Below, in pieces: positions 975 through 57,261 of a DNA stretch of 64,000 bases. The DNA is from Paraspadella gotoi (lineage: Eukaryota > Animalia > Chaetognatha). The notes beneath the pieces were generated by a model that saw only the letters and a list, made by a program, of their open reading frames with translations, was not told where the DNA came from and made no database searches. The stretch's first letter is position 1, and every line of letters begins with the position of its first letter. Position numbers and translations under genes: made by a program. Location: assembly GCA_051294375.1 (NCBI GenBank), contig CM119267.1, positions 9,077,709 through 9,141,708 of the forward strand. The letters run 5' to 3'.

Positions 975-1116
975 TGCATAACGGATAATAAGGACTTTTT
1001 TGTTGAGCACGATTGTGCCTGTGATTGTCGCCTGTGATTTCATTTGGCTCCTTTTTTTACATGTTTTTTTCTATAATGTTATCGTTTTTGTAGACGCAAT
1101 CCTAAAGTTGAAGGCG

Positions 1117-1554
1117 ATGCCAAAAGGATCAATTCCTCATCCTCAAAGCAGCGACGAGACTATTCGACCCTTTGCCAATGGCACGATCTCGGAAGGTGAA
1201 GGAAGAGGAGAAAGCGGCGCCACAGATTTAGCGCGAGATGCCGCTCCCGACGTTGTTGTGGACCAAATAATTTCCATCGAGCCTCGCTTCGTCCCTGAAC
1301 GAATTTCGCCACCGTCAACCAGAAAGCGAAAGCGCATTCTCATGGAGGATCACGCTCGAACCAGTGGCTTTGATAAATCCTTTGTTCCAGAAAAAATCGT
1401 CGACGCCTCGGAAGCTTCCGGCGAACTCATGTTTCTCTTGAAATGGACCCACTCGCATAGTTTGGAGTGGGTCTCTGCTCGACAAGCGAACGTCAAGTGC
1501 CCGAAAATGGTCATCGGGTTTTACGAGAATCGTCTCGGCTCTGTAAAAGATTAA
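1117..1554 (+). CDS. HP1/CBX-family chromo-shadow-domain-only protein
   Basis: GFDKSFVPEKIVDASEASGELMFLLKW...VSARQANVKCPKMVIGFYENRL matches the chromo shadow domain; basic RKRKR hinge; no chromodomain seen; ATG at 1117 follows tttttgtag acceptor. Confidence 0.85.
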   Translation: MPKGSIPHPQSSDETIRPFANGTISEGEGRGESGATDLARDAAPDVVVDQIISIEPRFVPERISPPSTRKRKRILMEDHARTSGFDKSFVPEKIVDASEASGELMFLLKWTHSHSLEWVSARQANVKCPKMVIGFYENRLGSVKD

Positions 1555-1671
1555 AATAAAATTTTGATTGAACTTTCCATTGTTTATTTATTTAGCTCTT
1601 CATTGATAGTTTCACCAGTTTGTTTTCGTAAGTTTTTTGTTAATTAAAAGTGAAAGAAAAACTTTGGGAAA

Positions 1672-2098
1672 ATGTCAATGGAAGTTGACGACGACTCAGC
1701 TTCGGCCGTCTCCGGCGGGGAAAAAGGAAACAAGAAGCGCTTCGAAGTAAAGAAATGGAACGCCGTCGCCTTGTGGGCTTGGGACATTGTCGTCGATAAT
1801 TGTGCCATTTGCCGCAACCACATCATGGATCTCTGCATCGAGTGTCAAGCAAATCAGGTGGCGATTTTCTTCCTAAAGATAAATTATTGATTTCTTTATA
1901 CTGATTATATTCATTATATGTATTGTTACCACTTACTGCATCTCATTCTAGGCTTCGGCTACGAGCGAAGAATGCACGGTGGCTTGGGGAATTTGCAACC
2001 ACGCCTTCCATTTTCACTGCATTTCTCGGTGGCTCAAGACTCGTCAAGTCTGCCCTCTGGACAATCGCGAGTGGGAATTCCAAAAATACGGACATTGA
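1672..2098 (+). CDS. RBX1: RING-box protein 1 (exons 1672-1857, 1952-2098)
   Basis: [90 protein letters not shown], near-identical to RBX1. Confidence 0.98.
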
Positions 2099-2578
2099 CA
2101 AATTCTTTCTATTTTTTGACGCTTCTGAATGCTTGACATGTCTATTTGCGGTTATCCGTTTCATCTTTGAGTATTTTTTCTGTGCAAACACCGTCTTTTT
2201 AACTCTAAGGGGAATAAAATGAAAATCTGGGGTTAGTAAGCTGAGCAGAGTGTAATTTGTCTGAATATAATGACTATTATGACATTAAATCGCCTTTTGT
2301 AGTATTTTCTGTTTTAGATTCACGATGACTTTATGAAATATATAATGTACTTCGGATGTTTTGCGGACTTAAAAGAACAGCTATGGCTTCCTCCGGAGTC
2401 TATTCAAGCGAGGAGAATATGAATAGATTGAAATAATTATTTTACGTATTAATTTTCTAGCAACCTGTGTACCTTTTTGATTTATCATAATCTTAGAGAA
2501 ACTTTTAATTCTATTTCTTTTATTAAACTATCATATAAAAAATCCAATTTTATAGATTTGTATTTTGCAAACGTTACT

Positions 2579-53628: not shown

Positions 53629-53729
53629 CCCCGTCTTATATTTTTCTCTAATTTGCAGACTTTTTTATACTATAATTACAAAAAAATGTTTTACAATGAT
53701 AAACTGTTTGGTTTTTTCAAGTCAAAATT

Positions 53730-54366
53730 ATGGCTTCGACGTTGCGTCGCTTCGCGGCTTCGCGAGCAGTAATCCCAGTGATAGCGAACTCTGCCCTAAC
53801 GACGGTCTCCTCACGGGCGTTATCTTTTCGACCTCCTTCTATTCCCCCTTCTCCCACACTTTTGCCTCCATCGGCCGGTTCCAATCCTTTCCCGATCGTC
53901 TCGATCCTTGGAACTGACCCAAAATTCCGAGGAAAGCGCAAAGCATTTCAGATGATAGCCAAGAACAATCGGCGTAACCGACACCCGCAAACGAGGCGGA
54001 GGTTCGGCTGGTACATGAATGAAGGCATGTGGGTCGACGAGAGTCATATCATTGTCAATCAGAGGGCGTTGAACGTATACCCCGGAGAAAATGTTGGCGT
54101 GAGAGACGACAAAACCCTCTACGCTTTGTGCGGAGGTTAGTAAACTTGGAGATTCTGAGACACTTATCCTAAGTCTTGCGAAAAAAAAATAAAATTCTCG
54201 GCTCTTTTGCTTAGGAAACGTTTTGACTTCGATGGAGGAGCTCAATCCTTATCCCGATAGCCCGTTGTATGCCGCAGTTCAAAACGGCGAAAGAATTTTT
54301 AGACTGTTTGTCCACGTTATTCCTCCGCCAGAGTCTCAAATGTTTAAACTCGTTAGCTTAGTTTAG
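53730..54366 (+). CDS. MRPL27: Mitochondrial ribosomal protein bL27m (2 exons)
   Basis: IIVNQRALNVYPGENVGVRDDKTLYALCGG|...PYPDSP...FVHVIP...FKLVSLV; presequence. Confidence 0.88.
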
Positions 54367-54421
54367 TTTTGTTTTTGTTGTTCCACGCTTGTTTGCGATG
54401 ATTATAAATATTATTGTAAAA

Positions 54422-56910
54422 ATGGATGTGAAAACTTTTTCAGGCACTTTTCCAGTAAAGAAATTTGACTTTACTAAAATCGCAATGATGGGCGATTGCA
54501 CTCGCGAATCAGCACGAGAGATATTAGAAACATCGTCTCCGCCAAGTCGGCCTCAAAGTTCCAAAAGAAGAAAACGCCCTGTCGTTCTTCCAAAGGACGA
54601 AAGAAAAGCGATATCGCCCATTCTCTGCTGTCGTCGTCCGAGCGTTCGTCTCTACGGCACCAACATCGTTTTTAAAGAATGGAACCTACCCCCGGTCGGT
54701 CTAGATACTGCCATCGTCGTTGATTTTCTTCGCGGACGAATCCACCCGACGTCAACCCTCTGCCACGTCTGCGCTTCCTTGCGATTGAGCCTTTCCTTCG
54801 CTGAGACGAACGCTTTAGGAACCCATACTCGTCACGCCATCGCTGTCGAGGTTGACGGACGGATTCTAGCTGTCGGGGAGGGGGAATCGAGGAAGATGGC
54901 GAGGAAAATGGCTTCGCGGCTGGCCATGTTGGTTTTACTGAGTAAGTCGAAATGGCAATCAGGGTAATTTCGTCACCACCTGGCTAAGGACAGGGCTTCG
55001 AACGAACTTTCTAATTTGATCCTTTTTATTTTCGGGCTGCCATTTATAATCCTGAACAATCATTGTAATGGAGTTGACTTCCTTTATCTTAACCCGCCCC
55101 GTTTTTGGGACTCAGATAAAACAGAAGACGAACTACTCGACTACGTGGAAAATGATTGTCTTCAAGTTTCGGTCGACTCGAAGGGTCGCCATCTCGTCGT
55201 GAAAACAGTTGCTTTTTCTGTCGAAGCTTCAAGCGCGGCGAAAGACACCAAAGGATTAAATTTCTTCGATTCTGAAAGAGAAACCGATCCCGTCGTTCGG
55301 CTGAAATCCTTTTGCCGAAAATATGGTATTTGGACGCTAGTTAGTCAATAACAGTCATGGTAAATTCGTGGTTGGCTGATTAATTTTTTAAATCCCTCTT
55401 CAGAATGGGCTATTGCTTTCGATGTGATTCCCCGCGGCGATTTTTTTTCGTGTAACGTGACAATCGCTTTTGAAAACGTCGCTTTCGCTTCTGACACCAC
55501 GCGAACCGGCGCCATGCGATCTGCTGCCGCAACGGCCTTCGATTTTATCACTCGTACCTTGTCTTTCCCTCCTGAAATTTTAAGACCCAGAGCTGTCGCA
55601 GAAATTTTGGGCGAACTGGTTCAAGTATGCTGTTCATTACTAAACACGGAATTATTAATATTTCTTTAACTAACCTTATCATTTGATTGTAAGGAACGAC
55701 GCGGCGATACTCTTCTTCGCCTGAGACTCCTAAACCCATCGCATTTTCGGTCACTCGATGATGCCTCGGTGACGGCGATCATCTTCACTCGTTGCCATGG
55801 AGATCGCGGGGAAGTGGTGGCGATGGCAATTGGTGACGTCCCGGAAATTAAGAAAAGGGAACGCGGGGGTCTGTCCGAAATGACGTCTCTTTTCGTTGCC
55901 CGTCGCGCCTTCTTGTTGTTTCTTTACCGAGAAATCGTGACCTTCTACGACGGTGATGGATACAAGTCCATTTTTGAAGTGAAGATACCTGAGAATTACA
56001 CTTAAATATCGATTTAACGTTTATAGTTTTTACTTTTTTACTTTCAGTTGTCGGACAAGAGTTGTCGGTTGAATCTAAAAAACGGCGTCGAGTTTCACTT
56101 TTATCTTTCTGAGAGCCCTACTCATTCCTGCGAAATTTCTAAACTTTTGGAATGGAATTTACATGGGGTTCAGGTTCTTACCGAAGCTTTCTTATTTTAT
56201 TCATAGAGATTCTGAAAATTAAGTGGGCCTTATGCCCATCTTTAGGGTTTACTACTTTCCCATATTATTCATCCGGTCTACGTAAGTTCTGTATTGCTGG
56301 GCGGCGACGACGGGAGAGAGGTTCTTGACGAAACGTTTCGCGCTGCCTCACTCGACAAAGCGTCCCCAGCCTTCTCTTCCACGAGCTTCAGCCGCAACCG
56401 GCCGTTAGTGATGTCCATTCAAAAACCCAATGGATTTTCTCAGTCAAAGGTTTATTTCATCAATTTGACTAGTGAAATAATGAACACACCTAATGGCTTT
56501 TTTATCCGGCAGAGCGACAGCCAAACTTCCATCAGTCTTAACTACACCGCGGGCTTTGAGTCGGTCGAAATCCTTGATTCTCGAACTGGCAAACCAGTAA
56601 ATTGGTTTCCCCTTTTCCGGGATCAGGAAAATTCTCGAGGCTCGTCCAATCTCCATCACGGAGACACAACGACTCAGAGCCGTGTCTCTCGGGCCTGCCT
56701 TTTCCAAAGATTCCAGATGGCGCTCTTTCACCACGACTACGAAGTGTTTCGGCGGTTGAACCTTTTTTCAGCTAGGTATTTGTCTGAGAAAAGTTGTAAC
56801 AGTTTTTAATAGCCAGTTAGCTTGTTGTTTATGTATTTCAGGGCGAATCGCGGAAGACGACGTCTTAAATACAGGCCGCTCTTAGAAGCCGAAGGTTTCG
56901 CGCGCGTTTA
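54422..56910 (+). CDS. dsRBD + degenerate adenosine-deaminase-domain protein (ADAD/ADAR-like); 3' end uncertain
   Basis: dsRBD AVGEGESRKMARKMASRLAM; deaminase-fold motifs EVVAMAIG, VARRAFLLFLY, FHFYLS, WNLHGVQ|GLLLSHIIHPVYVSS, SISLNY, EILDSRTGK, SRVSRACLF. Confidence 0.8.
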
Positions 56911-57261
56911 AACCCGATTTATTTCCAATTATTTTTCGGTTAATTCGGAAAGATAATTCACTTAGATTTAGAACCTCTCAGATCTTTGTCGATGAGAGCT
57001 TGGCTTTGAAGACATTTTTAGCATTTTTTTAAAATCAGTTGGATACCTTATGTTAATAGTTCGATTTATTTTTAAATTTTATCATGTTAATTCGAGACAT
57101 TGCAGCTGTTAATTTTTCAATTATCCTTCATCTTTGTTAATTTTTCTAATATGAGATGTTATCACGATTTGCATAGTTTGTTTTTAAATTTATTATGTTT
57201 TAGATCGGTGCGTTGCAATTAATTCGTCAGCTATTCCAAACAAGTCAGTCAGGAAGGATAC

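What the first reader, a model, noticed from the sequence alone, without database searches (positions are those of the whole stretch)
1085..57203. Unpaired 3' splice acceptors just upstream of start codons (candidate trans-splice sites)
Seen: polypyrimidine+AG a few to ~60 nt before the ATG, with no obvious matching donor in the short spacer: tttttgtag (1093), tttttcatcccag (14071), ttttttttag (17970), attatttag (22063), cctcccatttcag (30117), tttttcaag (36352), attttgcag (38039), catttcacag (51100), tatttatag (51911), tgttttag (57203). Spacers are T-rich. Inference: these are SL acceptor sites, and the T-rich spacers may act like the C. elegans intercistronic U-rich element.
Basis: partly seen in the sequence, partly recalled or inferred. 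Interest (0 to 1): 0.72.

Follow-up and report, generated by a model that had tools for sequence, protein, structure and literature searches.

The report
Arrow-worm leader-splice sites in 30-gene array
Thirty mostly housekeeping genes lie head to tail on one strand in what is very likely an arrow-worm genome, and the partnerless splice acceptors before their start codons are likely the points where a short leader RNA is spliced on to cut shared transcripts into single mRNAs, a mechanism already known in arrow worms.

Summary
All ten motifs are at the named positions, inside a run of 30 genes, all on the + strand (median stop-to-ATG gap 171 nt). Acceptor-like AGs before ATGs exceed chance (22 of 29 starts versus 60 of 163 control windows). 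Eight of the ten named AGs lack a credible donor. Spliced RNA contigs cross the four named AGs laid, and 9 of 11 spacers, uncut. Four relatives of the window's NMD3, in one clade with it (support 100), begin LSSFNLFK, the translation of the published chaetognath leader SL2.0. So the animal is very likely an arrow worm, and one gene's orthologs are trans-spliced. No leader was seen on this animal's own RNA. The C. elegans Ur-element idea is unsupported: the recalled Ur motif and AATAAA are at chance level in short spacers, which are likely plain 3' UTRs. Trans-splicing and operons are published for chaetognaths. This scan noted the like before (nine genes elsewhere in this genome; an acoel operon). 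Only the length stands out: 30 genes versus a published maximum of nine, but it may be about ten adjacent operons.

The parts
258..64000 (+). Co-directional array of 30 gene models (first and last partial), 66 modelled introns (62 GT, 3 GC, 1 GA donor); stop-to-ATG gaps 4-2160 nt, median 171, 20 of 29 at most 260 nt
   Evidence: Pfam: many hits among 139 + ORFs, one weak sub-threshold hit among 106 - ORFs; models; gaps; the model's spliced length over 40197-54136 equals the RNA contig exactly, 10362 nt
1085..1093 (+). Named candidate acceptor, 23 nt before HP1-like ATG 1117
   Evidence: 71st percentile; best donor 2nd percentile; no RNA laid
14059..14071 (+). Named candidate acceptor, 26 nt before orphan ORF ATG 14098
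   Evidence: 98th percentile; best donor 11th percentile; no RNA laid
17961..17970 (+). Named candidate acceptor, 26 nt before SMC5 ATG 17997
   Evidence: 92nd percentile; no credible donor; no RNA laid
22055..22063 (+). Named candidate acceptor, 3 nt before RING-protein ATG 22067; weak; the stronger AG at 22015 would leave two upstream ATGs
   Evidence: 14th vs 73rd percentile; upstream ATGs; no donor
30105..30117 (+). Named candidate acceptor, 20 nt before MFS ATG 30138; the one named site where an ordinary 5' UTR intron (donor 29959) stays open
   Evidence: 100th percentile; donor 53rd percentile; contig length fits either reading
36344..36352 (+). Named candidate acceptor, 7 nt before cathepsin C ATG 36360
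   Evidence: 64th percentile; RNA contig piece 36200-37093 crosses it without a joint
38031..38039 (+). Named candidate acceptor, 17 nt before POLR3C ATG 38057
   Evidence: 32nd percentile; contig piece 37158-38420 crosses it without a joint
51091..51100 (+). Named candidate acceptor, 11 nt before XRCC4 ATG 51112
   Evidence: 86th percentile; a donor exists at 50765 but contig piece 50019-52900 has no gap
51903..51911 (+). Named candidate acceptor, 19 nt before LRR-protein ATG 51931; only 38 nt after the XRCC4 stop, too short for any intron seen here (minimum 56)
   Evidence: 59th percentile; contig crosses it
57196..57203 (+). Named candidate acceptor, 58 nt before TatD ATG 57262 (competing AG at 57230)
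   Evidence: 55th vs 64th percentile; best donor 15th percentile; no RNA laid
8310..8329 (+). Unnamed candidate acceptor 35 nt before NMD3 ATG 8365; NMD3 is the gene whose orthologs carry the chaetognath leader
   Evidence: 73rd percentile
4512..4531 (+). Unnamed candidate acceptor before orphan A (ATG 4566)
   Evidence: 88th percentile
7172..7191 (+). Unnamed candidate acceptor before orphan B (ATG 7219)
   Evidence: 89th percentile
40980..40999 (+). Unnamed candidate acceptor 94 nt before RRM/MYND gene (ATG 41094)
   Evidence: 94th percentile; contig crosses it
53639..53658 (+). Unnamed candidate acceptor 71 nt before MRPL27 (ATG 53730)
   Evidence: 97th percentile; contig crosses it
60558..60577 (+). 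Unnamed candidate acceptor 69 nt before SR-like RRM gene (ATG 60647)
   Evidence: 98th percentile
258..2098 (+). Tight run 1 (gaps at most 260 nt): partial gene, HP1-like, RBX1
2579..5516 (+). Tight run 2: RPN7, orphan A
7219..11628 (+). Tight run 3: orphan B, NMD3 (then NDUFA13 alone, 12463-13616)
14098..27977 (+). Tight run of five: orphan ORF, RRN3, SMC5, TMEM70, RING protein; only 4 nt between the first stop (14940) and the RRN3 ATG (14945)
30138..40386 (+). Tight run of five: MFS, FAN1, cathepsin C, POLR3C, CD225
41094..50135 (+). Tight run of three: RRM/MYND gene, small membrane protein, dynamin
51112..56910 (+). Tight run of five: XRCC4, LRR, ERCC1, MRPL27, ADAR-like (then TatD alone, 57262-58797)
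59407..64000 (+). Tight run of three or more: MSP-domain gene, SR-like gene, NTAQ1 (runs off the window)

Best explanation
The AG sites lie just before start codons in a head-to-tail array of 30 same-strand genes, mostly without a splice donor, and are likely the acceptors at which the arrow-worm spliced leader is added to resolve shared transcripts into single mRNAs. Shown: one strand, short gaps, acceptors above chance, missing donors, introns removed while spacers are kept in RNA contigs, and the chaetognath leader on NMD3 relatives. Inferred: RNA polymerase II reads through several genes at a time, from promoters in some of the nine gaps of 351 nt or more. The spliceosome pairs each donorless AG with the leader RNA, giving the downstream gene a capped 5' end. 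The upstream gene is polyadenylated at or close to that AG without a canonical AATAAA, as in Ciona and in the Spadella RPS14-PCNA operon, so the T-rich spacer is mostly the upstream 3' UTR plus the polypyrimidine tract. The array is most likely several adjacent operons of 2-8 genes rather than one unit.
For: 30 of 30 gene models on +. 20 of 29 gaps are at most 260 nt, and gaps of 4, 55, 57 and 76 nt leave no room for a 3' end, a promoter and a 5' UTR intron (shortest intron 56 nt). Acceptor enrichment 22/29 vs 60/163. No donor above the 15th percentile in any of the 16 gaps of at most 351 nt that were tested. Run X1 is spliced RNA matching the window almost letter for letter; two contigs bridge 9 of the 11 spacers in the laid stretch, and one matches the intron model exactly (10362 nt, 22 introns), so its spacers hold no extra cis-intron. 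4 of 61 listed full-length NMD3 relatives, from two clusters with unrelated 5' UTRs, start LSSFNLFK, the frame-1 translation of SL2.0 after its TAA; no other of 318 fetched proteins contains FNLFK. The window's NMD3 is 78-81% identical to this clade, 54-60% to named animals, clade support 100. Chaetognath trans-splicing, operons and one-strand gene clusters are published.
Against: No leader was seen on this animal's RNA: 0 of the 6 X1 loose ends shown is leader-like, 209 loose ends and 35 joints were not displayed, and only contigs exist. A contig across genes does not prove one transcript. Only 4 of 10 named AGs had RNA laid. The leader-bearing orthologs are for NMD3, not for a named gene; none of the window's genes appears by name in the 119-row Spadella trans-spliced list. 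The first acceptor model gave only a weak signal and the best window was chosen after the fact. The gene at 44051 has no AG within 100 nt, and ERCC1 only poor ones (8th percentile). No SL RNA gene is in the window and no genome was available.
Confidence: 0.8

Rival explanations
1. Ordinary tandem genes with their own promoters; the AGs are 5' UTR intron acceptors or chance AGs in T-rich UTRs, and contigs are joined by overlapping UTRs or read-through.
For: 37-65% of 100-nt control windows also hold an acceptor-like AG. Donors exist for 30117 and 51100. Contigs cannot show single transcripts.
Against: No room or no donor in the short gaps. No joint into 4 of 4 named AGs laid. 30 genes on one strand. 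NMD3 orthologs carry the leader.
Confidence: 0.08
2. At some junctions the transcript is not cut: a mature multi-gene mRNA is translated by re-initiation or leaky scanning, or the two genes are made as alternatives from one precursor.
For: Introns are removed but spacers kept across 8 genes in one contig. No AATAAA enrichment. The 4-nt gap before RRN3, the AG-free 55-nt gap before the ADAR-like gene and the AG-free 100 nt before 44051 fit poorly with clean resolution.
Against: Most starts have intron-quality acceptors. Relatives' NMD3 proteins sit mostly on contigs of about 1.6-2.7 kb, one gene long, some with the leader. A trace of precursor is enough to join contigs.
Confidence: 0.07
3. C. 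elegans-type resolution: cleavage at an AAUAAA, then a U-rich (Ur) element in a true intercistronic spacer recruits an operon-specific leader.
For: Short spacers are T-richer than introns (44.0 vs 38.7%). TAYYTT is above shuffles in the 9 long spacers (65 vs 50 +/- 6.5, 2 of 100), as are T runs.
Against: TAYYTT and AATAAA are at chance level in the 19 short spacers, with no fixed position. No operon-specific leader in two chaetognaths and a 3-nt intercistronic distance in the mapped operon.
Confidence: 0.05

Closest known systems
Chaetognath SL trans-splicing and operons (Spadella cephaloptera, PMC2481426; Paraspadella gotoi, PMC12460157)
   Same: Same lineage by inference; same leader (SL2.0) on NMD3 relatives; housekeeping genes packed on one strand (Spadella BAC table: 19 of 24 rows +, 4 rows -, three of them labelled transposon, 1 blank); gaps under 250 bp.
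   Different: The run here is 30 genes over 63 kb and open at both ends; the longest operon reported in P. gotoi has nine genes. Leader use at these AGs is not observed.
Ciona intestinalis spacerless operons (PMC1488885)
   Same: No AATAAA signal upstream (16 of 18 Ciona cases); one general leader; the spacer is likely 3' UTR up to the acceptor.
   Different: Ciona operons are mostly two genes; poly(A) sites were not mapped here.
C. elegans SL2 operons with Ur element (10.1101/642082 passages; motif recalled)
   Same: Same-strand genes about 100 nt apart, unpaired acceptors, T-rich gaps.
   Different: No Ur-motif or AATAAA excess here; no operon-specific leader known in chaetognaths.
Kinetoplastid directional gene clusters (recalled; mentioned in PMC1488885)
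   Same: A long one-strand run of unrelated genes that would be resolved by trans-splicing.
   Different: Genes here have many cis-introns, and nine gaps of 351-2160 nt could hold promoters; a single transcription unit is not shown.

Membership tests
Chaetognath SL-resolved operons | The organism is a chaetognath | tested here: met
   Indirect: NMD3 in a clade (support 100, FastTree) with proteins that begin with the translated chaetognath SL2.0; SMC5 tree gives a long-stemmed unnamed bilaterian clade (quick tree)
Chaetognath SL-resolved operons | Same-strand genes under about 250 bp apart | tested here: met
   30 of 30 on +; 19 of 29 stop-to-ATG gaps under 250 nt, 20 at most 260
Chaetognath SL-resolved operons | Unpaired 3' splice acceptor at the 5' end of downstream genes | tested here: met
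   8 of 10 named sites without donor; exceptions 30117, 51100; no acceptor for the gene at 44051
Chaetognath SL-resolved operons | Leader joined at these AGs in this species' mRNA | tested here: inconclusive
   Only contigs, one 20-kb stretch laid, most loose ends not shown; leader seen only on NMD3 orthologs of related species
Chaetognath SL-resolved operons | Polycistronic precursor across the junctions | tested here: inconclusive
   9 of 11 spacers bridged by spliced contigs; contigs are not molecules
Chaetognath SL-resolved operons | SL RNA genes in the genome (in 5S units in Spadella, PMC2566580) | not testable with these tools
   No genome held; none in the window
C. elegans SL2/Ur operons | Ur motif at a set distance before the acceptor | tested here: not met
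   TAYYTT (recalled) 20 vs 18.7 +/- 3.7 in short spacers, scattered positions; the stem-loop part was not tested
C. elegans SL2/Ur operons | AAUAAA cleavage signal upstream of an intercistronic region | tested here: not met
   2 of 19 short spacers, 2.3 expected
C. elegans SL2/Ur operons | Operon-specific leader | not testable with these tools
   Reported absent in S. cephaloptera and P. gotoi
Ciona-type spacerless operons | Poly(A) site coincides with the downstream acceptor | not testable with these tools
   Needs 3'-end reads; lack of AATAAA excess is consistent
Ordinary 5' UTR cis-introns | A donor at least 55 nt upstream and a spliced joint in RNA | tested here: not met
   No credible donor for 8 of 10; no joint at 4 of 4 laid; open for 30117
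Kinetoplastid-type directional gene cluster | One transcription start for the whole run | tested here: inconclusive
   Promoter-motif and CpG scan of long gaps showed nothing clear; one contig break between POLR3C and CD225

The most novel reading that the evidence does not exclude
The whole run, at least 30 intron-containing genes over more than 63 kb, is one transcription unit from a single upstream promoter, cut up by leader trans-splicing coupled to AATAAA-independent polyadenylation: a trypanosome-style directional gene cluster in an animal, over three times the longest chaetognath operon reported. RNA contigs already bridge gaps of 707 and 976 nt, which the published 250-bp rule would call operon ends.
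Probability: 0.2. Interest if true: 0.7.

Novelty: new member of a known kind. Interest (0 to 1): 0.3.

Why it matters
Leader trans-splicing and operons are known in arrow worms, so the acceptors themselves are expected biology. The locus matters as a test bed. It offers 29 junctions with gaps from 4 to 2160 nt for asking how long an animal operon can be, whether a fixed distance cut-off splits real units, and how 3' ends form without AATAAA or an SL2/Ur system. It also shows a usable trick: leaders survive as N-terminal peptides in gene calls from metatranscriptomes and mark both lineage and trans-spliced genes.

Tried and rejected
No whole genome was held, so SL RNA genes could not be sought outside the window. 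Rfam found only a sub-threshold miRNA match on an inverted repeat. A 16-nt piece of the Spadella leader had 0 matches in the window at up to 2 mismatches and a leader pattern 0 matches in 80 loci. The run search listed no holder on record as RNA; X1 was judged RNA from its GT-AG joints. X2 gave only fragments, X3 two records and X4 none. A second laying of reads was not obtained, so six named AGs have no RNA test. The metagenome scan with SMC5 returned 80 loci, none a close relative (best segment 46%). The SMC5 search and tree did not name a phylum (careful tree unfinished). My early guesses of gastrotrich or other groups were dropped. The naive acceptor PWM was not significant against shuffles (53 of 500). 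Promoter motifs, CpG and shared k-mers in long gaps were inconclusive. Donor-like words were not depleted against shuffles, although donor scores were rarer in spacers than in intron interiors (1.0 vs 3.2 per kb). A frameshifted fusion of the 14098 ORF with RRN3 was rejected: relatives of 222-313 aa stand alone and end alike. Whether 30117 is cis-spliced could not be settled from contig length (start 29163 if unspliced, 29004 if spliced, both at repeat edges). Seven window proteins looked up were not in the protein collection. Literature searches found no longer animal operon than the nine-gene one, but the library lacks most subscription papers.
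Full report
Observation. The window is animal DNA. Pfam hits fall on the + strand for many of 139 ORFs scanned; 106 minus-strand ORFs gave one weak sub-threshold hit. Hand-built models give 30 genes, all +, the first and last partial, with 66 introns (62 GT, 3 GC, 1 GA donor; median 78.5 nt, minimum 56). One exon junction of the ADAR-like gene was left out as unresolved. Genes include HP1-like, RBX1, RPN7, NMD3, NDUFA13, RRN3, SMC5, TMEM70, an MFS transporter, FAN1, cathepsin C, POLR3C, dynamin, XRCC4, ERCC1, MRPL27, TatD and NTAQ1. 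Stop-to-ATG gaps run from 4 to 2160 nt, median 171; 20 of 29 are at most 260 nt, giving tight runs of 3, 2, 2, 1, 5, 5, 3, 5, 1 and 3 genes.

Chance. I scored all 29 gene starts, not only the ten named, with models trained on the window's own introns. A naive PWM gave 17 of 29 against about 40% of controls, and 53 of 500 shuffles reached it. A pooled model gave 9/29 vs 45/480 at 40 nt (p=0.0017) and 10/29 vs 41/300 at 60 nt (p=0.0065), weaker than real intron ends. Without the +1 base and with 100 nt, a width chosen after relatives showed 66-93 nt between leader and ATG, it gave 22/29 vs 60/163 (p=1e-4), 0 of 300 shuffles, and no difference from real intron ends (p=0.77). The 19 unnamed starts alone gave p=0.0015 at 100 nt, 0.019 at 40 nt and 0.13 at 60 nt. 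Named sites rank at the 14th-100th percentile. The gene at 44051 has no AG within 100 nt and ERCC1 only poor ones. For GT donors, 8 of 10 named sites have none above the 15th percentile or no room; 30117 (donor 29959, 53rd) and 51100 (donor 50765, 31st) do have one. Short spacers are 44.0% T against 38.7% in short introns (p=0.0015).

RNA. Run X1 holds 83% of sampled words of 14000-23300. Laid on 36200-56199, its contigs skip the modelled introns at 15 displayed joints, so it is spliced RNA of this or a near-identical animal. Two contigs (9280 and 10733 nt) bridge 9 of the 11 spacers in that stretch, including gaps of 707 and 976 nt; POLR3C-CD225 falls between the two contigs and MRPL27-ADAR-like is not among the listed pieces. 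The second contig's length over 40197-54136 equals my spliced model exactly, 10362 nt with 22 introns, so its seven spacers hold no hidden intron. The four named AGs covered (36352, 38039, 51100, 51911) are crossed without a joint. Limits: these are contigs, which drop minor forms and short ends; 35 joints and 209 loose ends were not shown; none of the 6 X1 loose ends shown is leader-like. The other six named AGs have no RNA test.

Lineage and leader. SMC5 found two unnamed relatives at 62% and 59%, then named animals at 35-42%; a quick tree left the phylum open. Earlier notes of this scan called the genome an arrow worm and pointed to PMC2481426; I tested the lineage. NMD3 exon 2 matched eight unnamed clusters at 82-86% and named animals at 64% or less. 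Among 61 listed full-length members of those clusters, four (P0263, P0266, P0304, P0306, two clusters, unrelated 5' UTRs) begin LSSFNLFK. The main Spadella leader SL2.0 (Table 3) translates as GSL*LSSFNLFK. No other of 318 fetched proteins contains FNLFK. The other 57 lack it; nearly all start at or near Met, where a leader would not show. The window's NMD3 is 78-81% identical to these proteins, 54-60% to 18 named animals, and sits in their clade with support 100 (FastTree, 29 rows chosen from those fetched). So the animal is very likely a chaetognath, and NMD3 is trans-spliced in related species, 66 and 93 nt before the ATG. NMD3 is not one of the ten named genes.

Mechanism. Most likely polymerase reads through several genes; each donorless AG takes the leader; the upstream mRNA ends at or near that AG. 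Shown: layout, acceptors, missing donors, kept spacers, leader on orthologs. Inferred: leader use at these AGs, co-transcription, the place of 3' ends and of promoters. The Ur-element analogy fails its tests: TAYYTT (motif recalled; the term UAYYUU had 0 occurrences in the 12 papers listed) is at 20 vs 18.7 +/- 3.7 in short spacers with no fixed position, though above shuffles in long spacers along with T runs; AATAAA occurs in 2 of 19 short spacers, 2.3 expected. The T-richness is better read as 3' UTR plus polypyrimidine tract.

Known systems. S. cephaloptera adds 36-nt leaders to about 41% of genes, its RPS14-PCNA operon has 3 nt between poly(A) site and acceptor, leaders are not position-specific, and a 158-kb BAC shows genes clustered on one strand (PMC2481426: passages, sections 12 and 13, supplements 2 and 3 read; EST/BAC alignments unreadable). 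In P. gotoi nearly half of the genes are trans-spliced, 18% are in operons defined by under 250 bp, and the longest has nine genes (PMC12460157: passages and a supplement search; the table spreadsheet was too large to read and may list these genes). Spadella SL genes lie in 5S units (PMC2566580 passages). Ciona operons lack spacers and mostly lack AATAAA (PMC1488885 passages). Ur elements direct SL2 in nematodes (10.1101/642082 passages). PMC7986045 and PMC11067885 were seen as passages.

Verdict. What exceeds the record I could find is the length of the one-strand run. If it is one unit it would be a trypanosome-like cluster in an animal (probability 0.2, interest 0.7); a promoter scan could not decide this. 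Overall interest 0.3.

Noticed in passing
window 14940-14945: Only 4 nt separate the stop of a lineage-specific 280-aa ORF from the RRN3 ATG; the best acceptor (14911) lies inside the upstream coding region, so the two mRNAs may be alternatives. A related RRN3 has about 60 more N-terminal residues.
   Followed up: partly
proteins P0134 and P0312: A relative's NMD3 and a relative of the 14098 ORF are each on a JGI contig of 4178 nt, about the size of NMD3 + NDUFA13 + that ORF. If it is one contig, the gene order is conserved in another arrow worm; only the lengths were seen.
   Followed up: no
protein P0317: A relative of the 14098 ORF (named site 14071) begins LNLLK ten residues before its Met, which resembles the NLFK end of the translated leader; too short to count as evidence.
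   Followed up: no
window 59702-59773: The MSP-domain gene stays in frame in my model only with a GA-AG intron; a real non-canonical donor or an assembly error. Three GC-AG introns were also modelled (23508, 32884, 41362); the last is skipped in RNA.
   Followed up: partly
window 43945-44022 and 44051: A 25-codon hydrophobic ORF precedes the small membrane-protein gene, which has no AG in the 100 nt before its ATG; the RNA contig is unspliced here.
   Followed up: partly
window 54366-54422 and 54940-55070: No AG between the MRPL27 stop and the first ATG of the ADAR-like gene (the stop's own TAG is the last one); the first exon junction of the ADAR-like gene could not be modelled.
   Followed up: no
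window 4566-5516 and 7219-8193: Two intronless orphan paralogs, 31% identical, no Pfam hit.
   Followed up: partly
window 17997-21155: SMC5 is one 1052-codon exon, while dynamin nearby has 14 introns; that SMC5 is usually intron-rich is recalled.
   Followed up: no
window 10212-10400, 16271-16454/28819-29002, 23704-24874, 28456-29312, 12943-13065, about 46300-46450: Repeats in introns and long gaps: a 91-nt-arm palindrome, a 184-nt dispersed repeat, two elements with inverted ends, a 17-nt TTAGGG-like array, and an element at very high contig depth in a dynamin intron.
   Followed up: no
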